Of a stretch of 64,000 nt of DNA, positions 3,001-27,007 are shown one piece after another. The stretch's first letter is position 1. Each line of letters begins with the position of its first letter. The notes under the pieces are model-generated. The model searched no databases. It had not been told where the DNA came from and saw nothing but the letters and a program-made list of their open reading frames with translations. This DNA is from Trypanosoma brucei (taxonomy: Eukaryota), in contig CP000069.1 in the NCBI GenBank assembly GCA_000002445.1, positions 1,408,001 through 1,472,000 on the forward strand, read 5' to 3'. Made by a program: the position numbers and the translations under genes.

Positions 3001-5533
3001 ACCGGTTTGTTTTGTGTGTAAACCAAACAATCCTCCTTCGTTCCTAGTTGGGTTCCCATGGCGGTGGTGTGAAGAACTCCAGGGTGGTCCGCAGACTGAA
3101 CATGCTGAGTTTGTCGTAGCGTGTGGATTTCACATCTCCGTTGGTGGAAGCGGAAGCACCTCTGGTAGCATTGTTCCAGTCACTCGAGCTATGCGTGTGA
3201 TACACCCCGACCTCCCTGTTAGTAAGACGCCGGCGTTAGCACGAAGCCAGTTTCTACTGTCGCAAAACATAAAAGTGTCGTCGTCGGGCGAACCCCGCGC
3301 GCTGATTCGGATCTCTCTCGCTGAAGGGCTGTCAGTATGCTTACTTGATCTACTTGATTCCGATAACTGGATGCAACTCGTGGGACACGTTGTTGCGGAG
3401 GTAGAGAAGGAATCAGACTTAATGCACGATATCATGGTTCAGCGTCTGGGTTTATCGTTGCCGGCCCGGCTAACGGAATCTATACTGGTGAGTTCGTGCT
3501 GTGGCTCCAGTGTAGACGTGCCGCAAGATGGCTGGATAAACGTACGGACTGACGAGTGCCGCTGGACCGGCAGCAATGTGCGGTTACCACCACAGTCTAC
3601 CCTTCGTTCCGACATGCTTACGATAGTTATGGAAGGGCTATGCAATCGTGGTCTGCTTGCGAACGATACAATAAGGATTGAAGATGCTGTTACTGCGCTG
3701 TATAACGAGTGTCCTCAACTTTCACTGAGGGCGTGTCACGATTTTCTTCGAAATTTTGTTCGTGAGGGAGTGTTCAAGGTAAAGCACAAGTCACTTACCT
3801 TCCGCACGGGAAACACAGTCAGTTTGGCGGAGGATGTGATGACCGCGTGTGCCTTCCGGAGACACGTCCATGGAGCACGTCTTCTCATTGAGTCGCAACA
3901 TTGGCAGAAAGGGAACGCTGATTCGCTCCAACAGATCGAGTCATTTTGGTGCACCGCACGCCGGGACGGTGAGGTGAGACTTGCTCAGGCCGTGGTGTCC
4001 CTTCAAAGTCATAACAAGCAAATTTACTGTTCTCGTGTCTCAGATTTTACTTTGCGCTCCCGGACTCACTGGCAGCCTTCAGATGATATTCTTCCACCTT
4101 CATTACCGCGGGGGGCTAACTCGCACTCTGAATACTGTCCTTCAGTGGACTCTGCTTTGCAGTCTTACGTTCAACACATTCACGGGATTTTCCCCACGGC
4201 ACGGGTCGTTGACTTGGACCCCCGAGACACAACTGTAACATCGGATGCGACACTGCTATGCCGATTCCGCTGCCGTTATGGTAAAATGGCTGACCCACAA
4301 GGAGGGGAAATAACCTTTGTTCCACATTTGTACTACGTGCTGGTCCCAGTAGCAGACACTGTTAAAATGATGGGACTGGCGCCGCTTAGGGAGGTGGGGG
4401 ATCACTGGATTGTAAAAGGTGGGTTGTTTATCGTGGAGATTGGATTTCAGGTTGTCCACTTCGCCCTGGACGTTTTTATGGTCAGCGGCTGCTCGCTCTC
4501 GGATGGCACAGCGGCCAACGCGGCCACGTGGTTCAAAAGGAAGCTTATGTTCAGCACTGTGCTCTATGATTTGACGGTTTGGCGGCTGCTTCATTGTGTT
4601 CAGATGTATGCGACCCATTTACCCGGGCAGTGGCAGACTTCCGATGCTATTGAAAACCTCGTGAAGTATTATCCAAATCCGCCTAACGAGAGCCTCAATG
4701 TCGCTGCTGTTTTCGACTTGGACGAGCCGAAATTGCGGCGCCTGCGACGACTAATGCCAAACGAGCAAAACGCTGCTCCCGGTGTCAACGCCGTCAACGA
4801 CGTCCATTTGCAGCAGCTTATCCCTGAACAAGGCGAGTTGCTTCATCGCGAATCCACAGGAGAAAAATATCAATATTGTGGTTTGATGTTATGGCGGTCG
4901 TTGCGCTTGTTAGTGTTGGTTTCCACTTTGCGCGACGTCGCCCATTGCGATAGGCGTCAGAATAGTGACCTTTACAAGTTGGTAATGAATGCGAAGAGCT
5001 CACTCCTTCGGATGCTCATAGATAGCACACTTCGGCAGCAGTTGCAACTAACGTGGAAGAGATTCCTCACACCTCCAATTGAAGCACAGGAGCTACAAGA
5101 GGGTGATGTGGAGGAGGCGTTGCAGGATTTACGCGTTTTGCAAACGAAAAGCGCAAGGGTATCTATTGTTAGTTTTTTAGAACCGTTCCTTTCCCTAGAT
5201 TTGAACTGGGCGAATGCGCTTTTCAACTCTGGAAGATACCTATCACGGTTGTGTTTTAATGAATATGCCCTTCATTTATTACCCGTTGATGGCAGTCAAA
5301 CGCGGGGTGGAGCCATTATGACTTTGGGGAGTGGCTCACTTGACTGTGGATGTCTCGTTGTTGTCGAATTCAGTCGTTGTGAGGAGCGTGGAGTAATAGA
5401 AAATGGGGTATTGTACAGGAGTTACGGCGAACGGATAACCTCCACTTCATCCATGAGTGAAGCCGAACTGGAACTTGTTGAGTGTGTGTTAGGGATTCTC
5501 TCTAGTCTTTTGTGGAGTGGTGAGGCATGCTAG
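8..5533 (+). CDS. 3' 1841 codons of a very large ORF (5' end outside window); hypothetical protein, no recognisable catalytic motif
   Basis: Uninterrupted 5.5 kb frame, which is very unlikely by chance at this base composition. Codon usage is similar to the downstream RHS genes and it is on the same strand as the RHS cluster. No Walker A, kinase, LRR or other motif was seen by eye. Confidence 0.55.
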   Translation: MGIPPLQQQQLLVCVLRPAQCCCVTLLLVPGPSTVPSSGGNAREVTVHVLSLDAAALYEGVMRHYGRITGDVDKGGVHSCSDNSLRESLNILLTSFSSLHVGSQFLRYERSHQGNFHDLRAIWGEEMLRVFTPFQDYFREIDVSYLIFMHHGSFIDCTNEEPCESRLESLIASLLQSASLRPMSTNPTVFLRATEVVEDVQVEEGVNTSNVSELANVPFLMKLALLRVSEPGYVNDCAWISAPCEGVTGETDCVKLLLDIFMQRKRYHQKQRLVLQCFIKTSPCQLFDVAGGERSLTPQVARDIFRKLQETPRTQGGSEPASNLQTFFAEEMHTETLQTLRRWSLPYEEIPMKARLSFDSLIWGAISQMVQYSLTESLKSQPFEELRNVVMGGQTSDAEEGLVSDSGQPNKVTSDANAADARGEGVDMEVLAHDSVDVVEAVSRIVGLSELMSVTVIPALLSVPCFELDSFTVQFTRQPACADNVEPSIVLRDVFTRCLSEDLVCVVPASDFCYLFIPNRRYFSSWWLMIDVRTVQETATECRLRLLCNKPRDPDVCGRVGKHLRRLIEARVREANQMYLLRQLRDTQSANKELIPFHWGNQFNPPAPINKNKKGSGPPTQLAMTSMPFHCRGVAVRKIPVYYKLQHQCQKVLNRITNSSSRLELINIYNREQCFIVADDAQKDTFHYIRLVFVKDTSSQPSVTEPAPRLSPADCCPWVVVQLFSATKNALVSRPLRKLEDFLYLLAVQELRDHLNYVQHKVISSVDLNFLQYKALDPITIDLKDANDDQNLDETDTQLAFALVVLSLHEMKFKHFEVESEQTGAFSNFMEYYKLQMRTDRLTNASTAAQPVLGDVYKCGWNALLRFVKVIEKEADVLVSCSVQVNNDSRLVVSKFLTKAPGDWCCVGDSEKTYLMQIDDAVSIGLSRWRFFIMTRGFGVMTLSQVVPAVDKMLDFCTSTLCANSAVLRLKKFSLDRVSLAVFPLLVERLVGVLEPLSPVCFVCKPNNPPSFLVGFPWRWCEELQGGPQTEHAEFVVACGFHISVGGSGSTSGSIVPVTRAMRVIHPDLPVSKTPALARSQFLLSQNIKVSSSGEPRALIRISLAEGLSVCLLDLLDSDNWMQLVGHVVAEVEKESDLMHDIMVQRLGLSLPARLTESILVSSCCGSSVDVPQDGWINVRTDECRWTGSNVRLPPQSTLRSDMLTIVMEGLCNRGLLANDTIRIEDAVTALYNECPQLSLRACHDFLRNFVREGVFKVKHKSLTFRTGNTVSLAEDVMTACAFRRHVHGARLLIESQHWQKGNADSLQQIESFWCTARRDGEVRLAQAVVSLQSHNKQIYCSRVSDFTLRSRTHWQPSDDILPPSLPRGANSHSEYCPSVDSALQSYVQHIHGIFPTARVVDLDPRDTTVTSDATLLCRFRCRYGKMADPQGGEITFVPHLYYVLVPVADTVKMMGLAPLREVGDHWIVKGGLFIVEIGFQVVHFALDVFMVSGCSLSDGTAANAATWFKRKLMFSTVLYDLTVWRLLHCVQMYATHLPGQWQTSDAIENLVKYYPNPPNESLNVAAVFDLDEPKLRRLRRLMPNEQNAAPGVNAVNDVHLQQLIPEQGELLHRESTGEKYQYCGLMLWRSLRLLVLVSTLRDVAHCDRRQNSDLYKLVMNAKSSLLRMLIDSTLRQQLQLTWKRFLTPPIEAQELQEGDVEEALQDLRVLQTKSARVSIVSFLEPFLSLDLNWANALFNSGRYLSRLCFNEYALHLLPVDGSQTRGGAIMTLGSGSLDCGCLVVVEFSRCEERGVIENGVLYRSYGERITSTSSMSEAELELVECVLGILSSLLWSGEAC

Positions 5534-10900: not shown

Positions 10901-13100
10901 ACAATAACTTTCAATACTGATCCGTACAGGGCAGTGTGAGGCACGCGGTTATCGCAGTTGGGGGATATCAAAAAGTTTTTGAGTGTGTGGGAAAGAATAA
11001 CGGCACCCAGCAGTCGATTTGTCAAAAAGACACTAAAACCTTACGGAATGACGGCACCTTCAACAAAAAGGGGAGAACTTTCACCTTCACGCAACAGCAG
11101 TAGTCGCAACAGAGAACGATTTGGAATCCCGCATTTTAGCAGAAATGTGAAAGCATGTAAACACCAAGGAATTTCCTCGCAACACCGCTCGCCATCTCGA
11201 GTTGCGGGCTGACGTATGAAACGGTTCAGGAAATTTAACAGCACTAATGTAAAGATATTTGATGAATGGGCAGCTTTCTCGTAGATGATTTCACACCCCA
11301 CGAGGAAAGTAGCGGGACACGTCTTCATTCCAGAGGCTCAGCATTTTGTTATTTGCTCATCAAATTAAAGTGACTTCGGAGACTCAGCAGCAGCAGAACT
11401 TTCCGGTACAACAGATAGATGCGACTAGGTTATCACTGCATTGGGTTAGAGAGAGAGACCTAACATCCAGTCTCGACGGCGATATGATGAAATGTAGCAA
11501 ATTACGCGTAAAGCCCCGAAGCGTAGGAAGATTGGGAACAATAACCGAAATTGACTGTTTCCAAAGTAGATGCATTTATTTTGGAGACTCATCATGGGAT
11601 GGGTAGTGCCAGCTTTACAGTGATGAAGGGGAAGCCAAGTCACGAGTAGATGTTTTATCACACGGCCAAAGCTGATAAATAACCATGATAATTATGAAAC
11701 CATGGCCTCATTAGAACATGTGTTCCGTTATTTGATTGCAGTCTGCAATGAAGCTGCAGCATTCATCTTTGACTCAAAGGCTCCGTTTCTTTCTTTCAGG
11801 TGGAACTTGTAGCGTATATTTGCGCATGTCTCCGGTTGCCAAACGAAGAATGGAAAACTTGTGGAACCAATCCATCTTTCAATGGGTTATGAATATGGTT
11901 CAGGATATCCTACGCACGATTATACTCAGGCCCCGGAAAGAGACACAGAAGTGGTTTAAAGAAAATGTATCGCACCGCATCGCTAAAAACATGTGCGAAC
12001 TTATAACATTCGCATAAAGTGTATTACAGAAAGTCATCAAGGAGTTGGAGTGTAATGATAAGGGAGCATATGGTACAATACGGTGCCATGGTAGGAGAAA
12101 GCAAACTCTTCGCAGAATACAATTTCATATGGGTTCATTTTGATCACGAGAGAAAAATATGCCACCTTTCGGTGGAGCAAACAAACGGCAAAACTCAGGA
12201 AGGCCGCTTCGATGGAAAAAACAAAAACGAGAAAACAGTTGAAGAACATAATATCCCGCATGATGTACACGGCAGACGTACGAGGAAATTCTCTATTCCA
12301 ACAACATTATCTCTTTTTGAAGATGGTGCGCCGACGACCTTTAAAGCTCAATACATGATTATTGGAGGAAACTGATTCGACTCGCCTTTCATCGTATTCC
12401 ATGAAGAGAAAACAACAGTGGCTTAATATATTTCTTAACAGCGAGTATGTCAATTCACCGAGTTATTTACCAACACCATCCAAATTATTCGCAGGCACCT
12501 CAATGAAAGATTGGGAAGCAATACCGTTTAGGGTTAGTGGGAAGTTATGAGCCCCAGGAGGACCAGTGGGCGCAACCACATTTTTGTGTTTCGCAGGTGG
12601 AGGCGAGAGCAGTAGACTTGAAATTACAAAGGCATTTGGAAATAACATTTCATCACAGCTGCACCGGTGCATTAACAATACCAAGTTCATACATGTAACA
12701 ACTAAAGTGAATGTACAATTCATAGACTGTTGTGTGAAGTAACTTTAATCAACCAGATATTGAAAGAAGCGGAAGCATCAAAGTCACTTGGGACTGCGTT
12801 ATTTTTACACATTATTATGCTGATGGTATTTTACAGGACGAGGCAGTTATGGTCAGAGACATGACGAAATGCTGGAGCTTGCAATGCGGATAGTTGAGGG
12901 AAGATTAAGTACAGTAACAAGATTTCTTTCTTGTAATTTTTATTTAAAAATAATGTATAAGATATATAATAATTATTTTCTCTCGCTCAATACGTCTCTG
13001 GTTTGAGGTATGAAGACAATATATTTATATTTATTGTTGCTTTCAGTATTTTGTTTTTTTTATTTCTTTGTAAGGTGTGCCAGCCACTAACTATTCTGCA

Positions 13101-13548
13101 TGTAACTGAGTATTCTACGTTTTGCATAGCTTATCACTAAAACTATTATTTCCTATTCCTCAATGTAATGTCGAACTAATTTATTTTTTTTTCTTTTGCA
13201 TACATATATATGTAAGTATATTATTTTTTTCTGAAATGATTGTGTACAGTAGTTGGGAAATGTTGTTTGGGTTTTCCTCCAAACAGAAATGTTTATTCAT
13301 ACTGTCATGCCTTATTTGTGCTTAAGTTGCCGTGGCTCCCCAACACATGATAAGATTTGTATTGAATCCTAATTTTAGTAAATAGTTTTCATCTGTCATA
13401 TTAATTCCTAATATTCATTTATTGTATATTTATTTTGGTTTAGAAGTGTATCCGTTTTATATTCCCTCATCTTAATTCTTTTTTTTTATATTACAAAGAA
13501 AGGAAATAACACAACGCACTCAATTAAGATTATTATTCGGAGAGTGAA
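13101..13548 (+). repeat. Duplicated RHS 5' flank, copy 1 (partner at 18271-18712)
   Basis: About 440 bp nearly identical to 18271-18712 and ending at the RHS ATG in both copies (..ttattcggagagtgaaATGaatcaacag). Confidence 0.85.
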
Positions 13549-15291
13549 ATGAATCAACAGGTTCCTATTGAAGGAAGGGGTGACATTGAGGGAAGGAGAC
13601 GAGAGCGTGAGGAGGCTGCGCGTAACGATGCGGAACCTCCAGCAGTGCAGCAACGAGTGGAGAATAACAAACAACCACAATGGACAATTTTGAGCAGCGT
13701 TGAAGCAGTTTTGCTGAATGGTCTGCCGCATCCTGGAAATATGAGTGTAAATGATTTTTTGAGGTTTAATTTACTCGAAGATATCGATTTGGATCAGCGT
13801 CTCCTGAGAGCATCAATGTTTGCCTTTGTACAACGATGTGAAGAGTATATTAATGACGTTAATACACTCAATCGAATATTCGCGGCAGTAGCGTATAAAG
13901 TGTACAAACGTTTTGTCAGCATCTATGGTTTCTATGAGGATGAGGGAATATTGAATCTCAGGCGCTGGCAACAAGCAAATGAGGAAGTAAAGGCCAGGTT
14001 ACACGTGAATATTCGTGGACTGAGAAATGGAGATCAAACTTGGATTATTGTCACTAACATGTTGAATGATGCACTCAAAGAAGCATTGGGAGAAGCTGCC
14101 CAAACAGCTGGTGGTGCTGTCGAACTCTCAGGTTTGTATGATTCCATTTATAATGCGAAATGGAGTTACGTGATGTCGGGTTATGATGCAGGGCCATTTG
14201 GAATGTATGTATTCAATGGAAGACCACAGCGCATATGGACCGAAGCGGAGGTGGATATAACTCCTGATCCTGCGAATGTTGATGCAGAGATTGAGGAGAG
14301 ACCTTATGGTTTGGAGATTTTCGTTCTCACGTCTGAGGAAGGTTGGCCATACAACAGGTTTGAAATGGATTACACTACGGGGCGCAAAGCAGCATTTCAG
14401 CATGTATACATCCGTCGTGAAATTATGCGCGTGTGGTATATAATTCAACGAGGATTGCAAACATGGTGGGTGGAAAAGACGGCTCACAGACCACCGATAC
14501 ATATTGTTATTGGTACAGCTGGTATTGGTAAATCATGTGGTGTTGGATCATTTTTGCTTCATTCCCTGCTTCACTTCCATGAAGGAATGCTTGATGTTGT
14601 TGCGTATTTCACAGACACGATCGCCTTCCTCATATACAACAGAAAGGGTGATGAAAGAGGGAGGGTTGAGCGGTACGAAGGTTCGAGAGCTGCGGTCAAC
14701 GCCATGAATAAAATGAAATTTGAAAACGGAGGTCACATCATTATGGACACAAGGTACGCAACGCAGCAGCTGTATACTCATCTTCCCTCTTATACTTGGG
14801 GTGTAACTTTCCTCACTTTTCCGAATAGTGCCCGTTTTGATGACTGGACTACAAATAGGGGAGGCCGCCAAATTATTATAAACTGTGATGATGTGCGTGA
14901 CATGAAGGCATTTGTGGCATGGAAAAAGCTGTCAATACATGCAAGGAAAAAGGTATCCAACAGAAGAAGACACGAATTGAGGAAGGAAATGGAAGATGAA
15001 TGAAAAATAGTGGAGGGACGTATTAATTCAATTGGGCCTCTGCATCCTTATATATCTGGTTTAAGATGTTATGAGTGGCGTCTGAAAAGAGTGCATGATG
15101 CGTTGGAAACTATGAAGAAATCGGGTGAATATTCCTATAATAATATTATTGAGCATACGGCTGCCAGAGAGAACAATGAAGTTATGAACAAGTTGGAGAA
15201 GATTGTAAGAGTAAAGGCAAATGTTGGAGGAATCGAATCATACAAATGTCAAGCTCTATCACCGATGATCCGACATATGATGATGAGCTAA
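13549..15291 (+). pseudogene. RHS: RHS (retrotransposon hot spot) protein gene, empty-site copy, 3'-truncated and degenerate (stop at 15003, then homologous frame 15010-15291)
   Basis: N-terminus MNQQVPIEGRGD...PPIHIVIGTAGIGKS (P-loop) is near-identical to the 18713 copy. It contains the uninterrupted hot-spot sequence ttttgcttcattccctg|cttcacttcc at about 14560-14587. It diverges from copy 2 after ..AWKKLS and ends about 900 bp short of copy 2. Confidence 0.75.
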
Positions 15292-18270: not shown

Positions 18271-18712
18271 AAGTATTATACATTTTACATAGCTTATCAG
18301 TAAAACTAATATTTCCCATTTTTCATGGCAATGCCACATTTATTTATTCTTTTTGCTTTTCCATACCCATATATATCTAAGTATATTATTTTTTCTGAAA
18401 TGATGGTGTGCAGTAACTGGGAATTGTTGTTTGAGTTTTCCTCCAAACAGAAATGTTTATTCATACTCTCATACCTTATTTGTGCTTAAGTTGCTGTGAG
18501 TTCTAAACACATGATAAGATTTGTATTGAATCCTAATTTTAGTAAATAGTTTTCATCTGTCATATTAATTCCTAATATTCATTTATTGTATATTTATTTT
18601 GGTTTAGAAGTGTATCCGTTTTATATTCCCTCATCTTAATTCTTTTTTTTTATATTACAAAGAAAGGAAATAACACAACGCACTCAATTAAGATTATTAT
18701 TCGGAGAGTGAA
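18271..18712 (+). repeat. Duplicated RHS 5' flank, copy 2
   Basis: Near-identical to 13101-13548. Confidence 0.85.
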
Positions 18713-19729
18713 ATGAATCAACAGGTCCCTATTGAAGGAAGGGGTGACAATGAGGGAAGGAGACGAGAGCGTGAGGAGGCTGCGCGTAACGATGCGGAAC
18801 CTCCAGCAGTGCAGCAACGAGTGGAGAATAACAAACAACCACAATGGACAATTTTGAGCAGCGTTGAAGCAGTTTTGCTGAATGGTCTGCCGCATCCTGG
18901 AAATGTGAAGTTGAATGATTTTTTGAGTAGTAATGTCTATAGAAGAAACCATGTGAATGAAGTAAATAATGTATCATTGTTTTTGTTCTGTAGAATGCCG
19001 GAGCGATACATTGAAAGAAAGGATATACTGGACGAGGCATTTGATCTACCTGATTTTGGGACGTACAAACGTTTTGTCAGCGTCCATCGCTTCCTTGAGG
19101 ATGAGGGAATATTGAATCTCAGGCGCTGGCAACAAGCAAATGAGGAAGCAAAGGCCAGGTTACACGTGAATATTCGTGGACTGAGAAATGGAGATCAAAC
19201 TTGGATTATTGTCACTAACATGTTGAATGATGCACTCAAAGAAGCATTGGGAGAAGCTGCCCAAACAGCTGGTGGTGCTGTCGAACTCTCAGGTTTGTAT
19301 GATTCCATTTATAATGCGAAATGGAGTTGCGTGATGTCGGGTTATGATGCAGGGCCATTTGGAATGTATGTATTCAATGGAAGACCACAGCGCATATGGA
19401 CCGGAGCGGAGGTGGATATAACTCCTGATCCTGCGAATGTTGATGCAGAGATTGAGGAGAGACCTTATGGTTTGGAGATTTTCGTTCTCACTTCGGAGAA
19501 GGGTTGGCCATACAACAGGTTTAAAATGGATTACACTATGTGGCGAAAAGCAGTATTTCAGCATGTATACATCCGTCGTGAAATCATGCGCGTGTGGTAT
19601 ATAATCCAAAAAGATCTGAAAGCATGGTGGGTGGAAAAGACAGCTCACAGACCACCGATACATATTGTTATTGGTACACCTGGTATTGGTAAATCATGTG
19701 GTGTTGGATCATTTTTGCTTCATTCCCTG
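18713..19729 (+). pseudogene. RHS: RHS gene, 5' segment (aa 1-339), interrupted by ingi at the hot spot
   Basis: Same N-terminus and P-loop (IVIGTPGIGKS) as copy 1. The frame continues directly into ingi, giving the 1717-aa chimeric ORF 18713..23866 in the ORF track. Confidence 0.85.
19713..19729 (+). repeat. Target-site sequence ttttgcttcattccctg (TSD copy 1, immediately 5' of ingi)
   Basis: The identical 17-mer recurs after the ingi poly(A) (24980-24996) and after the RIME poly(A) (25494-25510). The empty site is present in RHS copy 1. Confidence 0.8.
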
Positions 19730-19732
19730 GCG

Positions 19733-22700
19733 ATGCCGGCCACCTCAACGTGGTGCCAGGGTCCAGTACCCCGTATCATCGGGGGAAGCCAAGAGCCAGC
19801 AGCGTTCCTTTCATGGGGAACACTGCTGTGCTCCGGCTACGGCATCATACAGCACAGGGATCAGCAGCGTCTTGCTGGGACACCGTCTTTCATTTGTCGG
19901 TCCCTGGGCACGTGCCAGCGTGCCATCAGCAGTATCATCCGCACTAAGATGCTGCTGTCCGGTGATGTGGAAGAGAATCCCGGCCCGTCGTTGCGCGGGA
20001 TGCAGTGGAACTGCGCCGGGCTATCTCAAGGAAAGAGATTAGCACTCCACAAAACCCTTGTTGATGAGCGGATCGCCTTTTGTCTGTTGAGCGAGACAAG
20101 GATGACGCCTGGAGAGGCGGCTTGCTTTAGCGTTGCTGGCTACCAACATCACGGAATAGCTCGTAACTGCAAAGGAGGTGGTGTATCAATACTAGTGAGG
20201 GAGGACCTACCAGTCGAGACCGGTATGGCCGTTATTGGTCGCATTGAACAAGTGCATGCAACAATTCACCTTGCACGTGGAACGGCGCTGACTGTCACGT
20301 CGGCATACATCCCACCAAAACACACCTTCACGGCAACTGACCTAGATACGCTTCTGACGACTGACGGTGCCCAGCTCATCGGTGCAGACGCTAACGCACA
20401 CGCGTTGGCATGGGATCGCGCGAGCCCACCAAATACCAAGGGTGAAACCCTCACACAGTGGTGCATTGACAACCAGTTTCTGGTCTGCAACACTGGTGAG
20501 TGCACCAGGTACGCGCGCCACCACGGGGAGTCCACCCCTGATGTGACACTGTCAAGGAATTGCACAGTGTACACGTGGACATCGCTGTATTCTCCCGATA
20601 GCGATCACCATCACATATTTTTCGACGTTATCGTTGGAGACGACACAGATGCACTGAGTTGCCCGCGGCTTCAAAAGCCCATGTACGCATGGCTAAAAGC
20701 TAACTGGAGGAATTTCCGTCTCAAGGTTGACGAGCTCTGCAGGAAAATTAGTAGAGAGAAGAACGTCAACACCCTGGAACAGAAATTGAGCTCCGCCATC
20801 CGCATTGCGACGAAGGTCTCCGTCCCCCGTGGCTGCAGAGCAACGCCACCACATTGGACACCTGAGCTCGCGAAACTCGATGAAGAGATCGCTGGATGCG
20901 GACCCTCCCACCGAAGGGAAAAGTTGGTAGCCACGCGTAAGCAGATCCTGGACCGTACCACAAAGAAGAGATGGAGCACGCTATGCTCCAGACTTGCGGT
21001 GTCAGACCGCTGCAGTCGGCACATTGTCAAGAAGGTATATGCGCCACGACCACTAACCACACCGGCTGTACTTGTAGATAACGCGGCCATCACGGACTAC
21101 CGTCAAGCTGAGAGGTTCAGTAAACTGTACTCGTCCCGCGCAAGAAGGCACCCCGACTCACACCCACCGGCACCAATAAAGACGATAGCGAGTGAGTTCA
21201 GTCCCATCACGATGGCTGAACTACGGAGATCGATCAAACTGCTACCGAGTGGATCCGCAGCCGGACCTGATTGCTTATACAACGAGGCACTGCAACATCT
21301 CGGCAGAACAGCGCTGAATGTTGTTCTGAGGCTATTCAATGAGAGCCTACGAACGGGAGTCGTGCCGCCTGCATGGAAGACTGGTGTTATCATCCCCATC
21401 CTGAAGGCCGGAAAAAAGGCGGAGGACCTCGATTCTTACAGGCCTGTGACGCTCACGAGCTGTCTCTGCAAAGTCATGGAGCGCATAATTGCCGCGAGAC
21501 TTAGAGACACTGTTGAGTCCCAGCTGACGCCGCAGCAATCAGGCTTTCGCCCCGGATGCTCAACGCTCGAACAACTCCTGCACGTCCGCGCTGCCCTCTG
21601 CCGTCCCACGCACCAATATCGTACGGGTGCTGTATTCGTTGACTACGAGAAGGCATTTGATACAGTAGACCACGACAAAATTGCGAGGGAAATGCACAGA
21701 ATGAAGGTATCACCCCACATTGTGAAGTGGTGCGTATCATTTCTGAGTAACCGAACTGGCAGAGTGAGATTCAAGGAGAAGCTTTCCAGAAGCAGAACAT
21801 TTGAGCGAGGAGTGCCACAAGGAACTGTCCTTGGCCCAATCATGTTCATTATTGTCATGAACTCGTTGAGCCAACGCCTTGCAGAGGTGCCGTTACTGCA
21901 GCACGGATTCTTTGCAGACGACCTAACGCTACTTGCGAGGCACACAGAGAGGGATGTCATCAACCACACACTACAATGCGGTCTAAACGTGGTGTTACAG
22001 TGGTCAAAAGAGTACTTCATGTCTGTCAACGTAGCGAAAACAAAGTGCACACTCTTCGGGTGTATAGAGCGCCACCCCCTTACATTACAACTGGACGGTG
22101 AAAGAATAGGAGCTGACAGGACACCGAAGCTTCTAGGAGTAACATTCCAGTGTCTGCAGGGGATGGCAACACATGCGGCCGAAACGAGACGCAAGATGGA
22201 CTTCCGACTACTGCAGATAGCAGCCATCTCAGCTTCTATATGGGGGCCAATACGACAAGTGCTGAGAGCTTTTTATCTAGCACTCGTACAGGCACACACC
22301 ATGTATGGCATTGAGGTATGGTACTGGGACGCTTCGGAACGAAGTCGCGACCTCCTTGCATCAGCACAACACAAAGCCAGTCGCATCATAGCCGGCATAC
22401 CGCATGGGACGCGCAAAGAGGACTCTCTGCTGGAAGCAAACCTCCTGCCACTCAAGACGACCACTCTTGTGCGCAGCATGAAATTCATGCTGATGTGTGA
22501 GTCACGAGGCGGATGTTTGCGGCGCAGTGCTGAAGAAGTATACCACAGCAAACACCCAGTCAGAGCCCTACATTCCCGTATCATGCGGTCCTACCCCCAC
22601 CTCCGCATTGAGCCACGCGAGCACCCACTAGAGACATCGACGCTCCGCCACAGCTGCCGACCGATATTTCACACGCAGATAAAGCCTGTGTGCGCTGATG

Positions 22701-23866
22701 ACCCTGACGATGTCAAAAGGGAGGCTTCCGAAAAGTGGATTGAACGACATTTTGCACGGAGGGGGAAGGAGCCACCGCGGCGAGAGCACTACGAATTGTG
22801 GACTGATGGATCCGTGTCCCTCGGTGAGAAGTCCGGAGCAGCTGCCCTGCTCTATAGAAACAACACGCTGATTTGTGCACCTAAGACAGGAGCAGGGGAA
22901 CTTTCATGCAGTTACAGAGCGGAATGCGTAGCATTAGAGATAGGACTGCAACGGCTGCTGAAATGGCTTCCGGCATACAGAAGCACACCGAGCAGGTTGT
23001 CCATCTTCTCTGACTCGCTGTCAATGTTAACAGCACTGCAGACAGGCCCCCTAGCCGTAACGGACCCAATTCTAAGACGACTATGGAGGCTTCTGCTTCA
23101 AGTTCAGAGAAGGAAGATACGTATCCGACTGCAATTTGTGTTTGGCAATTGTGGCGTGAAACGGAATGAGGTTTGCGATGACATGGCCAAAAAGGCCGCA
23201 GATTTACCACAGTTGCGAGACACATGGATCCCCGACATCATTGCTTATGCGAAGCGAGTGCTTAGGTCGGAAGAAGTCCATGAGAACACTCATAGGTTTG
23301 GTATCACGGGCAACCACTTTCCAACAAAACATAAGGAAGAACTGACGAGGGAAGAAGAAACGGCACTGGCACGCTTTCGGGTTGGGTCTTCAAGACACTA
23401 TGGATGGATGTTGCGAAAGATTAACCCGAGTGTGCCTCCACAGTGCCGATGGTGCAACCCGCAACATGCAGAGATAGGGCCAACAATACAAACAGCCCCA
23501 ACTGTTGCGACACGCACTCTTCAGAGAACCTCCGAACCGACCAAATGTACTGAATGTGATGCCACATACCAATGCCGCTCGAGTGCTGTAACGCATATGG
23601 TAAACAAACATGGCTTTGTGCGAGCTGATGCCCTTCGAAAGATAAAATACGGCGATGCAACACCTGCAGTGGATATCCCCCCGGAGCCCCCTCCAGTGGT
23701 GGCGATCGTTCCTCTACCATCGAGCACACGAGTTACGATGAGACCGCAGGTGCTTCATTGTACCATCTGTGCCTCCAAATTCGCAATGCCAGGCAGACTA
23801 CTACACCACCTTAGAACAATACATGGCATAGGCAGCGGCAGTTGCCGCGTGAAAAGGGGGCGATAA
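19733..23866 (+). CDS. ingi polyprotein ORF, in frame with upstream RHS. Contains leader with 2A motif, AP-endonuclease-like region (about 20000-20640), reverse transcriptase (about 21200-22100, FADD at about 21908-21921), RNase H-like region (about 22800-23200) and first C2H2 zinc fingers (about 23530-23840). Terminated by an in-frame TAA at 23864-23866
   Basis: Translation MPATSTWCQGPVPRIIGG...DVEENPGP...WNCAGLSQ...FVDYEKAFDTVDH...FFADDLTL...WTDGSVSLG...CTECDATYQC..HCTICASKF..HHLRTIHG. Confidence 0.85.
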   Translation: MPATSTWCQGPVPRIIGGSQEPAAFLSWGTLLCSGYGIIQHRDQQRLAGTPSFICRSLGTCQRAISSIIRTKMLLSGDVEENPGPSLRGMQWNCAGLSQGKRLALHKTLVDERIAFCLLSETRMTPGEAACFSVAGYQHHGIARNCKGGGVSILVREDLPVETGMAVIGRIEQVHATIHLARGTALTVTSAYIPPKHTFTATDLDTLLTTDGAQLIGADANAHALAWDRASPPNTKGETLTQWCIDNQFLVCNTGECTRYARHHGESTPDVTLSRNCTVYTWTSLYSPDSDHHHIFFDVIVGDDTDALSCPRLQKPMYAWLKANWRNFRLKVDELCRKISREKNVNTLEQKLSSAIRIATKVSVPRGCRATPPHWTPELAKLDEEIAGCGPSHRREKLVATRKQILDRTTKKRWSTLCSRLAVSDRCSRHIVKKVYAPRPLTTPAVLVDNAAITDYRQAERFSKLYSSRARRHPDSHPPAPIKTIASEFSPITMAELRRSIKLLPSGSAAGPDCLYNEALQHLGRTALNVVLRLFNESLRTGVVPPAWKTGVIIPILKAGKKAEDLDSYRPVTLTSCLCKVMERIIAARLRDTVESQLTPQQSGFRPGCSTLEQLLHVRAALCRPTHQYRTGAVFVDYEKAFDTVDHDKIAREMHRMKVSPHIVKWCVSFLSNRTGRVRFKEKLSRSRTFERGVPQGTVLGPIMFIIVMNSLSQRLAEVPLLQHGFFADDLTLLARHTERDVINHTLQCGLNVVLQWSKEYFMSVNVAKTKCTLFGCIERHPLTLQLDGERIGADRTPKLLGVTFQCLQGMATHAAETRRKMDFRLLQIAAISASIWGPIRQVLRAFYLALVQAHTMYGIEVWYWDASERSRDLLASAQHKASRIIAGIPHGTRKEDSLLEANLLPLKTTTLVRSMKFMLMCESRGGCLRRSAEEVYHSKHPVRALHSRIMRSYPHLRIEPREHPLETSTLRHSCRPIFHTQIKPVCADDPDDVKREASEKWIERHFARRGKEPPRREHYELWTDGSVSLGEKSGAAALLYRNNTLICAPKTGAGELSCSYRAECVALEIGLQRLLKWLPAYRSTPSRLSIFSDSLSMLTALQTGPLAVTDPILRRLWRLLLQVQRRKIRIRLQFVFGNCGVKRNEVCDDMAKKAADLPQLRDTWIPDIIAYAKRVLRSEEVHENTHRFGITGNHFPTKHKEELTREEETALARFRVGSSRHYGWMLRKINPSVPPQCRWCNPQHAEIGPTIQTAPTVATRTLQRTSEPTKCTECDATYQCRSSAVTHMVNKHGFVRADALRKIKYGDATPAVDIPPEPPPVVAIVPLPSSTRVTMRPQVLHCTICASKFAMPGRLLHHLRTIHGIGSGSCRVKRGR
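19964..19987 (+). other. 2A-like self-cleaving peptide motif DVEENPGP in the ingi leader
   Basis: Codons ggt gat gtg gaa gag aat ccc ggc ccg read G D V E E N P G P. This is the canonical D(V/I)ExNPGP motif. Confidence 0.8.
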
Positions 23867-24706
23867 AACGAGGACTCAGTGCAAGGAGATGGTAAAGCCC
23901 CAGCAGCGCCAGCCTCTCAGGATACACGGAAGCTGCCGTTTCAATGTGACCTGTGCGAGGCGAGCTTCGGTACACGTTCTTCCCTGACACTACACAAGAA
24001 ATTCAAACATAAAAGCATAGTGACGGAGGACGGTACCGTGGTGTTGGTGCAATTCCCTCGTAAGCGTGCCCGTGAGGGAAACGTTGACGTCCCGGGGAAG
24101 GGCGAGGTGCAGTGCGGTGTGTGCCAAAAAGTGCTCAGTTGCAGGGACTCCCTCATCCGACACTGTAAGGCTTTCCACAAAGGTGAGGGAGTCGAGCTTA
24201 AATGCAGCAAAAGCACAAAATTGTGTGCCACTGATTCCCCGCATACAAACACATCCATGTTGGTGTGCCCGACATGCGGAAGGCAGTGTGCTAGCAAAAC
24301 TGGCCTCACCCTACATCAAAAGAAGATGCACGGTATGAAGGTAGAGCGCGCTGTTACCAGCCAACGCGGCGACTGCGAAGAAACGTCGCTGCACTTGATG
24401 AGCTGTCCCGGTTTGAAGGAGTTACGTGTCAGATTTGCGGTAGAAGGTGAGTGTGTGCAGGATGTATGCTTCTCCAAAAGGCTGGCGCAGTTTCTCATTG
24501 CGGTTGAACGGAGCCGGCCGCAGGTGAAGTCCTCACCTAAGGTAACAGTCATACAACCCACTCTCCCTTCTGCAACTTCCCCCCTTATTGCCGAGTGTGG
24601 AGCAAGCAGGAAAAGCACCGGACGCAGGAATAGTCCAGACACCCTCAGAGACAGAGGAGGTATGCAGTCAACAAGCAACAGAAACAGAAAGAGGGGGAGA
24701 GAATAA
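23867..24706 (+). CDS. ingi ORF continuation after the single in-frame stop: C-terminal C2H2 zinc-finger region (ORF track 23879-24706)
   Basis: Same frame as 19733..23866. Motifs FQCDLCEASFGTRSSLTLHKKFKH, CGVCQKVLSCRDSLIRHCKAFH and CPTCGRQCASKTGLTLHQKKMH. Summed length of about 1654 codons matches a full-length ingi ORF. Confidence 0.7.
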   Translation, partial: NEDSVQGDGKAPAAPASQDTRKLPFQCDLCEASFGTRSSLTLHKKFKHKSIVTEDGTVVLVQFPRKRAREGNVDVPGKGEVQCGVCQKVLSCRDSLIRHCKAFHKGEGVELKCSKSTKLCATDSPHTNTSMLVCPTCGRQCASKTGLTLHQKKMHGMKVERAVTSQRGDCEETSLHLMSCPGLKELRVRFAVEGECVQDVCFSKRLAQFLIAVERSRPQVKSSPKVTVIQPTLPSATSPLIAECGASRKSTGRRNSPDTLRDRGGMQSTSNRNRKRGRE

Positions 24707-24979
24707 TAAACGAATAACAAAAATCAAAACAAAAGGATTGCTAATTGACATCTTTGGGAGAGTCCGGGGTGAGGGGGGCTTCTCGCCCCATCTGCTGTAT
24801 TCCGTTCAACTGCGGAGCTACAACAAAAATTATAGAGGGTGTGTTAGGATGAATAAAAAAGGGAGACTCTGCCACAGTCGCCAGACCGATAGCATCTCAG
24901 GGCTCTACGGTGATGGCTGATGGCCGCGCCAGTTGGGAGAAACTCTCACGAAGGCACGAAGAAAATTCAAAAAAAAAAA

Positions 24980-24996
24980 TTTTGCTTCATTCCCTG
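24980..24996 (+). repeat. TSD copy 2 (ttttgcttcattccctg), shared between the ingi 3' end and the RIME 5' end
   Basis: Follows the ingi (A)11 and precedes gcgatgccgaccacc of RIME. Confidence 0.8.
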
Positions 24997-25493
24997 GCGA
25001 TGCCGACCACCTCAACGTGGTGCCAGGGTCCAGTACCCCGTATCATCGGGGGAAGCCAAGAGCCAGCAGCGTTCCTTTCATGGGGAACACTGCTGTGCTC
25101 CGGCTACGGCATCATACAGCACAGGGATCAGCAGCGTCTTGCTGGGACACCGTTTTTCATTTGTCGGTCCCTGGGCACGTGCCAGCGTGCCATCAGCAGT
25201 ATCATCCGCACTAAGATGCTGCTGTCCGGTGATGTGGACCTCCAAAAAAGGATTGCCAATTGGCATCTTTTGGAGAGTCCAGGGTGGGAGGCTTCTCGCC
25301 CCATCTGCTGTATTCCGTTCATATGCGGAAATACAACAAAAATTATAGAGGGTGTGTTAGGATGAATGAAAAAGGGAGACTCTGCCACAGTCGCCAGACC
25401 GATAGCATCTCAGGGCTCTACGGTGATGGCTGATGGCCGCGCCAGTGGGGGGAAACTCTCACGAAGGCACGAAGAAAATTCTAAAAAAAAAAA
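24997..25493 (+). mobile_element. RIME: RIME (about 500 bp non-autonomous ingi-derived retroelement), poly(A) 25483-25493
   Basis: 24997-25238 matches the ingi 5' end (19730-19971). 25239-25493 matches the ingi 3' end (about 24725-24979). The internal junction gatgtgga|cctccaaaaaagg lies inside the 2A codons. Confidence 0.9.
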
Positions 25494-25510
25494 TTTTGCT
25501 TCATTCCCTG
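25494..25510 (+). repeat. TSD copy 3 (ttttgcttcattccctg), then RHS resumes with cttcacttccatgaagg
   Basis: Identical 17-mer. Downstream sequence equals RHS copy 1 from 14576 onward. Confidence 0.8.
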
Positions 25511-27007
25511 CTTCACTTCCATGAAGGAATGCTTGATGTTGTTGCGTATTTCACGGGCGGGATAGCCTACTTAATATATAACGATAAACCCGGTGAAGAG
25601 GGGAGAGTTGAGCAGTATAAAGGCGTGACAGCTTCTGTGAGGGGAATAAATGCAGTAAAGTACGAAAAGACAGGTCACATCATTATGGACACAAGGTACG
25701 CAACGCAGCAGCTGTATACTCATCTTCCCTCTTATACTTGGGGTGTAACTTTCCTCACTTTTCCGAATAGTGCCCGTTTTGATGACTGGACTACAAATAG
25801 GGGAGGCCGCCAAATTATTATAAACTGTGATGATGTGCGTGACATGAAGGCATTTGTGGTATGGAAAAAGCTGTCTGTAGCATCATGCTATGCGATACTT
25901 GATAAAGAGTCACAGGTGAGGATTGTAGAAGAAATCAAAAATGAGTGGAAAACAATAGAGGGCCGTGTTGATGTAGTTGGGCCAGTGCCTCGTTGCGTTT
26001 ACGACAGCATGGAGTACACAAAACGTGTGTCTCAGGCAAAAAAGACGATAACGGCCATCAATGATGATAACAAAAGACACTACGAGGACATAATGATGAA
26101 AATTGCCGGTTGGCAAAATGATAAGGTAACGCACAGGTTAGTGAGAATCGTTCGTGTGCGAGATGCCGGAGAGAGCATCGATGGATACCGCTGCAGGCCA
26201 CTTTCGGCTTGCATTGGGAATGCTATATTTTTAAAACTGCTTTCCATTATTGTGCAGAAAATGGCTATCCGTCAAGTTATGATTTCAGACGAGAGTGCTG
26301 CGGCCAACGTTTTCAAATCGGGGGCGTTGTTTGCATTTCTTTTTCCTCGAGTTTTTAAAGTTATCAGAGACAACATAAAATACCTGCGGCGGCCGGGTGG
26401 ACCGGAAGAGAAACGATGCATACTGAAAGACATGACTCCTCAGCAGTTGAGACTCACTGGGCAGAAGTTTTTACCAGATGCCAGACAGCAGCCAATGGAG
26501 AAGTGTGAATACATGGTTCTCTACCGCCCTGCCACAGTCAATGAACCCGTGGTGGATGGCTTTTTTTTCGTTGAGGGGCGGCTCAGGAAAACTCCTAAGG
26601 GCAGGGCGGCACTGACCACTCCAAATATAGCTGTGCTTTTACAAGTAACCAAGTTGGCATGTCACCCCACCACTGCGTCAAAGGTGCAGAAGTTCCGAGA
26701 AAACATGGCAAGATATTTTTCTGATTGGGGTGCGTTTTCCAGCAACATGGTTTGGGAGATGATATACATCAATGGAGCTAGTGGTGGTGTGATTACAAGA
26801 TGGCAGCTTTGTGATGGCGACGACCCCGCCGAAGCGGCTGATATGTGGAGAAACATGACTCAATACCAAGTAACGTTAAGAGAAGAAATGCAGGGGCAGC
26901 TAATGCGAGCATATGCAGAAGAAGGTTGGTATCGGGATGCTCCACTTCTGGCCATGGAGCCTGCGCCGCAGCCACGCAACGAGCAAGCGGGAGCGCAAGG
27001 AGGGTGA
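25511..27007 (+). pseudogene. RHS: RHS gene, 3' segment (about 500 codons) downstream of the ingi+RIME insertion
   Basis: ..LLHFHEGMLDVVAYFT..HIIMDTRYATQQLYTHLPSYTWGVTFLTFPNSARFDDWTTNRGGRQIIINCDDVRDMKAFV.. is collinear with copy 1. The ORF runs to the stop at 27005-27007. Confidence 0.85.

What the first reader, a model, noticed from the sequence alone, without database searches (positions are those of the whole stretch)
18713..23866. In-frame RHS-ingi chimera with a 2A 'stop-go' motif 85 codons into the element
The ingi ATG (19733) is in the same frame as the interrupted RHS, creating one 1717-codon ORF from the RHS start. The ingi leader contains DVEENPGP (19964-19987), the canonical 2A ribosome-skipping motif. 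Translation initiated at the RHS ATG, on an RHS-processed mRNA, would therefore release RHS(1-339)+ingi leader ending ..NPG and a separate ingi polyprotein starting with Pro. 2A-like motifs are described at the N-terminus of L1Tc/ingi-clade retrotransposon ORFs. Here the host gene could supply trans-splicing and translation-start signals to the element. That is one possible reason this site is 'hot'.
Basis: partly seen in the sequence, partly recalled or inferred. Interest (0 to 1): 0.6.

Follow-up and report, generated by a model that had tools for sequence, protein, structure and literature searches.

The report
RHS pseudogene split by ingi retrotransposon
This is a textbook Trypanosoma brucei RHS pseudogene interrupted at its known hot spot by an ingi and a RIME retrotransposon; the in-frame fusion and the 2A "stop-go" motif are real, but both parts are already described and the shared frame is a one-in-three by-product of where the element always lands.

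Summary
ORF 18713-23866 (1717 codons) is an RHS 5' part (to 19724) fused in frame to an ingi element (19725-24979). The ingi ATG is 19733, and DVEENPGP is 19964-19987, with its Pro at ingi codon 85.

The locus is the canonical RHS "hot spot" arrangement: RHS 5' | TSD | ingi | TSD | RIME | TSD | RHS 3', with three identical 12-bp target-site duplications (TTTTGCTTCATT).

The 2A is the ingi family's own N-terminal ribosome-skipping signal, reported active in vitro.

The shared frame follows from a fixed insertion point (after nt 1 of RHS codon 338) plus an ATG at ingi nt 9. A RIME in a divergent RHS subfamily sits at the same codon position (L002, in frame). One T. b. equiperdum junction is out of frame (L001). 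Five non-RHS ingi copies have no upstream host ORF.

The ingi 5' end carries the Pr77/HDV-like-ribozyme hallmark, which is reported to cut co-transcripts at element nt +1. This copy also has a nonsense mutation (TAA 23864-66).

Translation starting in RHS with 2A release is geometrically possible. It is unsupported as the element's expression route or as the reason the site is hot. Novelty: already known. Interest: low.

The parts
18640..18661 (+). Polypyrimidine tract (18640-18653) and first downstream AG (18661): putative spliced-leader acceptor for the RHS mRNA, 52 nt before the ATG
   Evidence: Script scan. The 155 nt upstream of this RHS ATG are identical to those upstream of the paralogue at 13549. 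Function is inferred, not shown.
18713..19724 (+). RHS 5' part: 337 codons plus 1 nt, open from the ATG. Contains the DUF7578 and RHS_N domains and the first 22 positions of the RHSP P-loop domain
   Evidence: Pfam hits PF24466, PF20445 and PF07999 (profile positions 1-22 only). 91% identical to the paralogue at 13396-14563.
19673..19696 (+). Walker A / P-loop codons GTPGIGKS (residues 321-328), five codons before the first-strand nick
   Evidence: Translation. The relation of the P-loop to the hot spot is described in PMC7563717.
19713..19724 (+). Target-site duplication, copy 1 (TTTTGCTTCATT)
   Evidence: Exact 12-mer found at 14552 (empty site), 19713, 24980 and 25494. A 12-bp TSD is the rule for Tbingi/TbRIME.
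19725..24979 (+). ingi non-LTR retrotransposon, 5,255 bp including an A11 tail (24969-24979)
   Evidence: The size and the 1657-codon ORF match the published description.
19725..19801 (+). Pr77 hallmark (first 77 nt): reported internal promoter and HDV-like ribozyme. The P1 helix (nt 1-7 CCCUGGC with nt 31-37 GCCAGGG) is intact
   Evidence: Direct reading. Rfam has no model that hits it.
19733..23866 (+). ingi ORF from its own ATG to a premature TAA (1377 codons): leader, 2A, AP endonuclease (about 20000-20617), reverse transcriptase (about 21419-22147), RNase H (about 22787-23200)
   Evidence: Pfam PF03372/PF14529, PF00078 and PF00075. ORF arithmetic.
19928..19987 (+). 2A-like ribosome-skipping peptide SSIIRTKMLLSGDVEENPGP. 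Predicted skip between Gly424 (19982-84) and Pro425 (19985-87)
   Evidence: The motif nucleotides are identical in 6 of 7 ingi copies. ingi 2A is reported active in vitro.
23864..23866 (+). Nonsense mutation TAA at ingi codon 1378 (other copies have GAA or GAG)
23879..24706 (+). Remainder of the ingi ORF, same frame, with C2H2 zinc fingers. The normal stop is at 24704-24706
24980..24991 (+). Target-site duplication, copy 2
24992..25493 (+). RIME (502 bp including an A11 tail). It consists of ingi nt 1-247 plus the last ~249 nt of ingi. The 5' half ends inside the 2A codons (..SGDV|), so there is no NPGP
25494..25505 (+). Target-site duplication, copy 3
25506..27007 (+). RHS 3' part (rest of the RHSP P-loop domain and the C-terminal region)
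   Evidence: PF07999 profile positions 17-311. The sequence continues exactly as the empty-site paralogue does.
13549..15003 (+). Paralogous RHS copy with an unoccupied hot spot (14552-14563 | 14564). Serves as the empty-site reference

Best explanation
This is a canonical Trypanosoma brucei RHS pseudogene. An RHS gene was hit at the family's retroelement hot spot, five codons after the GTPGIGKS P-loop, by two separate retrotranspositions: an ingi and a RIME. Each is bounded by the same 12-bp target-site duplication.

The insertion point is set by the ingi-encoded endonuclease. It always falls after the first base of the same RHS codon. ingi carries only 8 nt before its ATG, so that geometry happens to put the RHS frame in phase with the ingi ORF.

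The DVEENPGP peptide is the element's own, already described 2A signal. During translation it separates the 84-residue leader from the endonuclease/RT/RNase H protein. That leader is encoded by the nucleotide-constrained Pr77 region.

Shown here: the anatomy, the frame, the motif, the repeated use of one site, and the nonsense mutation.

Inferred from the literature: the element's RNA is normally made from the Pr77 promoter, or is freed from read-through transcripts by the HDV-like ribozyme cutting at nt +1. The RHS part and the ingi part would then usually not be on one mRNA.

If a ribosome did start at the RHS AUG on an uncut transcript, it would make a 424-aa RHS-N/leader product ending in NPG. 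Some ribosomes would then continue and make a 1,293-aa protein that starts with Pro and lacks its C-terminal end. I regard this as an incidental minor route, not the reason the site is hot.
For: Anatomy. There are three identical TSD copies plus an empty-site paralogue. ingi is 5,255 bp, and its 1657-codon ORF carries APE, RT, RNase H and C2H2 domains. RIME shares both ingi ends.

Same site elsewhere. A RIME in a 41%-identical RHS subfamily of T. b. gambiense has a different TSD (CTGTTATACA). It sits after nt 1 of the homologous codon and is in frame by DNA.

Site choice attributed to the endonuclease. Published work reports a 12-bp TSD and a conserved upstream motif. A non-RHS ingi (L003) is preceded by GTTGGATTATTTT, close to the RHS site GTTGGATCATTTT.

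The 2A is known and reported active for ingi/L1Tc. It is conserved in T. brucei, T. grayi and T. theileri copies.

Ribozyme and promoter. The P1 pairing is intact in the window. Published work reports L1TcRz cutting at +1, active ribozymes in T. brucei LINEs, and L1Tc RNAs that lack a spliced leader and a cap.

No general dependence on host ORFs. Five non-RHS ingi copies have only 1-20 open codons upstream in the ATG phase.
Against: The translation route of uncapped, unspliced ingi/L1Tc RNA is unresolved. Pr77 transcripts are described as poorly translatable, and an IRES is only proposed. A capped host-initiated route therefore has a real gap to fill.

The RHS 5' part is a fully open 337-codon ORF behind a plausible splice-acceptor signal. 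No strong polypyrimidine tract interrupts RHS-ingi until ingi nt ~4,830, so a continuous ~6-kb RNA is conceivable. Full-length INGI transcripts of ~6 kb accumulate in RNAi mutants.

Ribozyme activity for Tbingi itself is cited partly from unpublished work. It is known to be modulated by flanking sequence.

My junction sample is tiny: three RHS junctions.
Confidence: 0.8

Rival explanations
1. First reader's model (host hitch-hiking). Insertion in frame into RHS lets ingi borrow the RHS trans-splicing signal, cap and AUG. The 2A then releases a clean ingi enzyme starting with Pro. Lineage-level selection for this has shaped the endonuclease's preference and makes the site hot.
For: The in-frame geometry is confirmed. 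It recurs at the homologous position in a divergent RHS subfamily.

The upstream RHS ORF is intact, and a plausible splice-acceptor signal lies at 18640-18661.

The 2A sits N-terminal to the enzyme domains.

Element-initiated RNAs are unspliced and poorly translated, so how the enzyme is made is an open question.
Against: The prior for the frame is 1 in 3 from one geometry.

RIME cannot benefit from the frame, yet it uses the same site.

The L001 junction is out of frame.

Non-RHS ingi copies lack upstream ORFs.

The ribozyme is expected to cut RHS RNA off at +1.

This ingi copy is nonsense-mutated.

ingi and RHS-associated RNAs are major RNAi targets.

No paper in the searchable library reports such chimeric translation.
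Confidence: 0.1
2. The chimera encodes a host-useful product. The 424-aa RHS N-terminal fragment plus ingi leader would act as a truncated RHS variant, for example a regulator of RHS function or of retroelements.
For: The fragment keeps the DUF7578 and RHS_N domains and the Walker A motif. RHS proteins have been proposed to relate to retroelement control.
Against: The fragment loses almost the whole P-loop NTPase domain. Such loci are described as pseudogenes that give truncated proteins. The leader sequence is dictated by Pr77 nucleotide conservation. No conservation evidence was obtained for the fusion as such, and L001 breaks the frame.
Confidence: 0.03
3. The long ORF is an assembly or collapse artefact that joins an RHS copy and an ingi copy.
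For: The region is highly repetitive and subtelomeric, with RHS paralogues and a VSG array.
Against: The boundaries are precise, with three perfect 12-bp TSDs, A-tails, and an exact continuation of the RHS after the RIME. The same architecture is found in two other assemblies.
Confidence: 0.02

Closest known systems
RHS (retrotransposon hot spot) pseudogenes of T. brucei carrying RIME and/or ingi (Bringaud et al. 2002, Eukaryot Cell 1:137; the paper is not held, so it is summarised from PMC7563717 and my own memory of the abstract)
   Same: RHS_N and P-loop architecture. The insertion lies a few codons after the P-loop, in the same orientation. There is a tandem ingi plus RIME, a 12-bp TSD, and a subtelomeric setting next to VSG genes.
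   Different: Nothing structural differs. The in-frame relation to the ingi ATG is not mentioned in any paper I could search. I could not read the original paper to check.
2A-like ribosome-skipping sequences of ingi/L1Tc-clade non-LTR retrotransposons (Heras et al. 2006; Odon et al. 2013, PMC3708506)
   Same: The D(V/I)ExNPGP motif lies 40-80 residues from the N-terminus, immediately upstream of the AP endonuclease. ingi and L1Tc versions are reported active in reporter polyproteins.
   Different: Here an extra 340 host-derived residues could precede it if translation began in RHS. Published proposals treat 2A as a down-regulator or as a separator of an N-terminal function, not as a way of shedding a host fusion.
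Pr77 / L1TcRz dual promoter and HDV-like ribozyme of L1Tc, NARTc, ingi and RIME (PMC3185411, PMC3383444, PMC4035085)
   Same: The first 77 nt carry the hallmark. P1 (nt 1-7 with nt 31-37) is perfectly complementary. A hairpin at nt ~45-60 (CCCCG...CGGGG) replaces L1Tc's CUCU...AGAG in the same place, which is compensatory. I inferred this from the primer sequences printed, compared.
   Different: Cleavage was not tested for this copy or in the RHS context. No Rfam model detects it.
Site-specific non-LTR elements expressed from host transcripts (R2 in 28S rDNA; SLACS/CZAR in spliced-leader genes)
   Same: Insertion at one defined position of a multicopy host gene. Co-transcription with the host gene, followed for R2 by ribozyme release.
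   Different: Those hosts are RNA genes, so no host ORF is read into the element. ingi has only relative site specificity and is mostly found outside RHS.

Membership tests
ingi (Tbingi) non-LTR retrotransposon | About 5.25 kb, with a single ORF of 4,971 bp / 1,657 aa | tested here: met
   5,255 bp. The ORF at 19733-24706 is 1657 codons plus a stop, interrupted by one nonsense codon.
ingi (Tbingi) non-LTR retrotransposon | [quoted passage not shown] | tested here: met
   Pfam PF03372/PF14529, PF00078, PF00075, and PF00096/PF13894.
ingi (Tbingi) non-LTR retrotransposon | Both ends shared with RIME (about 250 bp each), a poly(A) tail, and a 12-bp target-site duplication | tested here: met
   The RIME matches ingi nt 1-247 (99%) and nt 5007-5255 (94%). 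Both elements have A11 tails. The TSD is TTTTGCTTCATT.
ingi (Tbingi) non-LTR retrotransposon | Retro-competence (an uninterrupted ORF) | tested here: not met
   TAA at 23864-66 where five other copies have GAA or GAG. This copy is a member of the family but is probably not autonomous.
RHS multigene family | RHS_N domain plus a P-loop (RHSP) domain with GxxGxGKS | tested here: met
   PF24466, PF20445 and the first 22 positions of PF07999 lie upstream of the insertion. PF07999 positions 17-311 lie downstream.
RHS multigene family | Retroelement insertion at the conserved hot spot just after the P-loop, in the sense orientation | tested here: met
   The nick is five codons after GTPGIGKS. The codon position is identical in L002, a different subfamily.
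2A / 2A-like ribosome-skipping peptides | C-terminal motif D(V/I)ExNPGP | tested here: met
   DVEENPGP at 19964-19987.
2A / 2A-like ribosome-skipping peptides | A suitable upstream tract. The motif alone is not sufficient for activity | tested here: inconclusive
   The upstream tract SSIIRTKMLLSG matches other T. brucei ingi copies. The ingi 2A is reported active, but I could not retrieve the exact tested sequence to compare.
2A / 2A-like ribosome-skipping peptides | Demonstrated skipping: separate upstream and downstream products from one ORF | not testable with these tools
   This needs a reporter assay or proteomics.
HDV-like self-cleaving ribozymes (L1TcRz type) | Nested double-pseudoknot fold, with the P1 helix pairing nt 1-7 to nt 31-37, and cleavage 5' of nt +1 | tested here: inconclusive
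   P1 complementarity is perfect by direct reading, and a P4-like hairpin is present. There is no Rfam hit. The MFE fold is no better than shuffles (z = -0.6), but that method cannot see pseudoknots. Cleavage is not testable here.

The most novel reading that the evidence does not exclude
The RHS hot spot works as an expression dock. ingi's endonuclease specificity and its 8-nt leader place new copies in frame behind an expressed, trans-spliced RHS start codon. Capped RHS-ingi mRNAs that escape ribozyme cleavage would be the translatable source of ingi enzyme, and the N-terminal 2A would exist to shed the host-encoded part. More generally, N-terminal 2A peptides in single-ORF LINEs could be a device for translation out of host ORFs.
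Probability: 0.1. Interest if true: 0.6.

Novelty: already known. Interest (0 to 1): 0.2.

Why it matters
As it stands this is a clean, well-preserved example of two described things: the RHS retroelement hot spot and the ingi 2A peptide. It adds no new kind of element.

The residual point of interest is that nobody has shown how ingi/L1Tc proteins are translated in an organism whose mRNAs need a trans-spliced cap. The in-frame RHS junction gives a concrete, cheaply testable alternative to the proposed IRES. The test would look for junction-spanning spliced-leader reads, ribosome footprints and one diagnostic tryptic peptide.

If that alternative were true, it would give a function to N-terminal 2A peptides in single-ORF LINEs. 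It would also offer an adaptive rationale for targeting a redundant, expressed gene family.

Tried and rejected
1. Rfam scan of 19600-20100 for an HDV-like ribozyme. Only sub-threshold chance hits came back, and Rfam seems to have no L1TcRz model. A plain MFE fold is uninformative for a pseudoknot.

2. Search for annotated in-frame RHS-ingi chimeric proteins. Two of the three large protein searches returned very few T. brucei RHS proteins and no in-frame chimera. Such loci are probably annotated as pseudogenes and never translated, so absence there means little.

3. P0027 (T. b. gambiense) at first looked like an out-of-frame junction. Its gene model is 1,396 nt long, not a multiple of 3, and it skips a base. 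The DNA itself is in frame. I rejected the protein model as evidence.

4. Exact-protein look-ups of the window's own ORFs (the 1717-aa chimera and the 484-aa RHS) found nothing on record. The source locus could not be compared between strains.

5. Independent test in T. cruzi. Among the 120 RHS proteins listed, none showed L1Tc or NARTc at the hot spot. Several proteins end exactly at ...GSYLLY, but the one I examined is a CAG>TAG point mutation, not an insertion. One T. cruzi RHS fragment (P0022) runs in frame into an L1Tc/NARTc 5' end at a different position. It was retrieved with a query containing that peptide, so it is biased evidence.

6. TSD search for the five non-RHS ingi copies found no exact duplications, so I did not build a target-site consensus.

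7. The original RHS paper (PMC118050), Heras 2006 (PMC11136212) and Bringaud 2009 (PMC2756862) are not held. I could not check whether the in-frame relation was already noted there.
Full report
**1. Observation**

The region was read directly and its ORFs were listed. There is one open frame, 18713..23866 on the + strand, of 1717 codons (translation).

The sequence CCCTGGCGATGCCGGCCACC..., the conserved 5' end of ingi/RIME elements, occurs twice in the window: at 19725 (exact) and at 24992 (one mismatch). The ATG at 19733 is in phase with the RHS ATG at 18713.

GATGTGGAAGAGAATCCCGGCCCG at 19964-19987 encodes DVEENPGP. Gly of NPG is residue 424 of the chimera. Pro is residue 425, which is ingi codon 85. 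Every factual element of the finding is therefore correct.

**2. Anatomy**

The 12-mer TTTTGCTTCATT occurs at four places:
- 19713, immediately before ingi;
- 24980, after the ingi A11 tail and immediately before a second Pr77 5' end;
- 25494, after a second A11 tail;
- 14552, in an uninterrupted RHS paralogue.

The structure is RHS 5' (18713-19724) | TSD | ingi (19725-24979, 5,255 bp) | TSD | RIME (24992-25493, 502 bp) | TSD | RHS 3' (25506-27007).

Pfam finds DUF7578, RHS_N and only the first 22 positions of the RHSP P-loop domain before the insertion. The rest of RHSP follows it. Inside the element it finds Exo_endo_phos, RVT_1 and RNase_H, with C2H2 fingers in the next ORF.

The ingi ORF from 19733 to 24706 is exactly 1657 codons plus a stop, the published size. 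It has one internal stop at codon 1378. That TAA (23864-66) is GAA or GAG in five other ingi copies, so it is a G>T nonsense mutation.

The RIME shares ingi nt 1-247 (two mismatches) and the last ~249 nt. Its 5' half stops inside the 2A codons (...SGDV|), so RIME has no NPGP.

The paralogue at 13549-15003 shows the empty site...TTTTGCTTCATT|CCCTGCTTCAC. The five bases after the insertion point (CCCTG) are the same as the first five bases of ingi. This is why residues S338 and L339 of the chimera are the same as in an intact RHS.

The best protein matches are to T. brucei brucei, T. b. gambiense and T. b. equiperdum. The rest of the window holds an array of VSG-like genes on the minus strand. 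This is a subtelomeric T. brucei RHS/VSG region.

**3. Is the shared frame more than chance?**

The insertion falls after the first base of RHS codon 338, and ingi has 8 nt before its ATG. One geometry gives one frame, with a prior of 1 in 3.

I looked for further junctions. Protein databases hold almost no RHS-ingi chimeras. Two led to loci.

- L002 (T. b. gambiense) has an RHS of a different subfamily (41% identity). It carries a RIME flanked by a different duplication (CTGTTATACA). The RIME sits after the first base of the homologous codon: GGA TCC CTA CTG TTA TAC A|CC CTG GCG ATG. By DNA it is in frame. The deposited protein model hides this because it skips one base (gene length 1,396 nt).
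- L001 (T. b. equiperdum) has an ingi at the same place, but its T-run is one base longer. The RHS frame therefore enters ingi in the +1 phase. Its two TSD copies have diverged, so it is an old insertion, or possibly a homopolymer error of the assembly.

A script over the window and seven loci found ten Pr77-bearing elements. The three in RHS have 345, 354 and 367 open codons upstream, two of them in the ATG phase. The five non-RHS ingi copies have only 1-20 open codons upstream in the ATG phase.

Three conclusions follow. The junctions share a frame because they share a site. The frame is not protected against indels. ingi copies in general do not sit behind host ORFs.

**4. Why the site is hot**

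Published work states that ingi-clade elements have a constant 12-bp TSD. [quoted passage not shown] The RHS insertion site is described as lying just downstream of the P-loop codons.

In this window the same phosphodiester bond was used at least twice, once by ingi and once by RIME. In L002 it was used in a diverged RHS. RIME has neither 2A nor enzyme ORF, so it gains nothing from the frame, yet it lands in the same place.

One non-RHS ingi (L003) is preceded by GTTGGATTATTTT, against GTTGGATCATTTT at the RHS site. I could not confirm that element's TSD.

Endonuclease preference, a large redundant gene family that tolerates hits, and spread by duplication and recombination together form the sufficient and already published explanation.

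**5. The 2A**

[quoted passage not shown] They are reported active in reporter polyproteins, and the site is conserved 40-80 residues from the N-terminus, just before the endonuclease.

The motif is conserved in the homologues retrieved here:
- T. brucei: SGDVEENPGP;
- T. grayi: SGNVEENPGP;
- T. theileri: SGDVEENPGP and SGVVEENPGP;
- one further hit whose species name was cut off in the output: SGDVEKNPGP.

Its nucleotides are identical in 6 of 7 T. brucei-group ingi copies. Published ideas about its role are down-regulation of the downstream enzyme and separation of an N-terminal function. Shedding of a host-encoded N-terminus is not among them.

**6. How the locus most likely works**

The first 77 nt of ingi are the Pr77 hallmark. 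In L1Tc this is an internal Pol II promoter. As RNA it is an HDV-like ribozyme that cuts 5' of nt +1. L1Tc RNAs in vivo lack a spliced leader and a detectable cap. Active ribozymes are reported for T. brucei LINE members of the clade.

In the window the P1 helix is perfect: nt 1-7 CCCUGGC pair with nt 31-37 GCCAGGG. A CCCCG...CGGGG hairpin stands where L1Tc has CUCU...AGAG. I took the L1Tc sequence from the primers printed, and the equivalence of the two hairpins is my inference. Rfam has no model that detects this region.

The most likely course is therefore that read-through RHS-ingi RNA is cut at 19724|19725, or that ingi RNA starts there. Translation would then begin at the ingi AUG by a still unknown cap-independent route. 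The 2A would separate the 84-residue leader from the enzyme. ingi and RHS-associated RNAs are also the largest source of siRNAs, and they rise when RNAi is removed.

**7.

It is geometrically sound. On an uncut RNA a ribosome starting at 18713 would release a 424-aa product: RHS 1-339, Ala, and ingi 1-84. It could then continue into a 1,293-aa protein that starts with Pro and ends at the nonsense codon.

Some features are compatible with it. A polypyrimidine tract and AG at 18640-18661 form a plausible splice acceptor. No comparable tract occurs again until 24557-24589. Full-length INGI transcripts of about 6 kb are reported in RNAi mutants. How these elements are translated is an acknowledged gap.

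Nothing positively supports the idea, however. Four things speak against it as the main route or as the cause of hotness: the ribozyme, the L001 frame break, the RIME insertions, and the ORF-less flanks of other ingi copies. I put it at about 10%.

**8. Comparison with known systems, and novelty**

The locus meets the defining features of an ingi element, except that it is probably not retro-competent. It also meets those of an RHS pseudogene with an occupied hot spot, and it carries the motif of a 2A peptide. Skipping activity and ribozyme cleavage are not testable here.

Both components and their arrangement are already known. The in-frame relation is not mentioned in any paper I could search. 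The original RHS paper is not in the library, so I cannot say it went unnoticed.

**9. Verdict**

Novelty: already known. Interest: about 0.2.

The useful output is a set of sharp tests: junction-spanning spliced-leader reads, ribosome footprints, and the peptide SCGVGSFLLHSLAMPATSTWCQGPVPR.

Noticed in passing
window 25238|25239 (RIME 24992-25493): The internal deletion that defines RIME begins inside the 2A codons. RIME keeps ...MLLSGDV and then jumps to the ingi 3' end, so its short ORF lacks NPGP.
   Followed up: yes
window 25433-27007: An ATG in the RIME 3' end reads through the A11 tail and the TSD, in frame, into the RHS 3' part. This gives a 524-aa ORF (MAAPVGGNSHEGTKKILKKKILLHSLLHF...) that lacks the Walker A motif. 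In L002 the same ATG is not in frame by DNA, so this looks like an accident of A-tail length.
   Followed up: partly
window 35522 to about 34900, minus strand: A third, degenerate Pr77-bearing element (5 mismatches in the first 40 nt; 86% identity over 73 nt). Its leader retains a decayed 2A, RGNVEHNPCH (about 35283-35257), followed by an ingi-like ...QWNNGSLPQ... stretch. It is probably a DIRE lying between the RHS genes and the VSG array.
   Followed up: partly
window 13549-15003: An RHS paralogue whose 5' 1.17 kb is 91% identical to the interrupted copy. Its 155-nt upstream region is identical, and its hot spot is unoccupied. It is cut to 484 aa by a stop, so it is a pseudogene without a retroelement.
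   Followed up: partly
window 14564-14568 and 19725-19729: A five-base microhomology (CCCTG) between the sequence downstream of the target and the first bases of ingi. It is absent at the L002 site (AACTA), so it is not required for insertion.
   Followed up: yes
L003:2460-2485: A non-RHS ingi in T. b. equiperdum is preceded by GTTGGATTATTTT, nearly the same as the RHS site GTTGGATCATTTT. This may reflect the endonuclease's preferred motif. No TSD could be confirmed for that element.
   Followed up: partly
L002:10001-11396 and 11483-12992 (T. b. gambiense DAL972): The deposited gene models for the two halves of this RHS pseudogene have lengths that are not multiples of three (1,396 and 1,510 nt). 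The database proteins (for example P0027) therefore contain silent frame corrections and misreport the junction frame.
   Followed up: yes
L008:7976-7978 (T. cruzi); proteins P0038, P0057, P0115, P0121: Several T. cruzi RHS protein clusters end exactly at ...GSYLLY, the codon position of the T. brucei hot spot. In the one locus I read, the cause is a CAG>TAG nonsense mutation with no retroelement.
   Followed up: partly
window 36300-62000, minus strand: An array of VSG-like ORFs (C-terminal ...GNNSF.. and ..LLF tails), some truncated. It places the RHS/ingi locus at the edge of a subtelomeric VSG array.
   Followed up: no
window 19812-19943: All three frames stay open for at least 73 codons at the 5' end of ingi. 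An out-of-frame ATG at 19812 opens a 43-codon ORF (MGNTAVLRLRHH...), which some genome annotations call as a protein start (for example P0012).
   Followed up: partly
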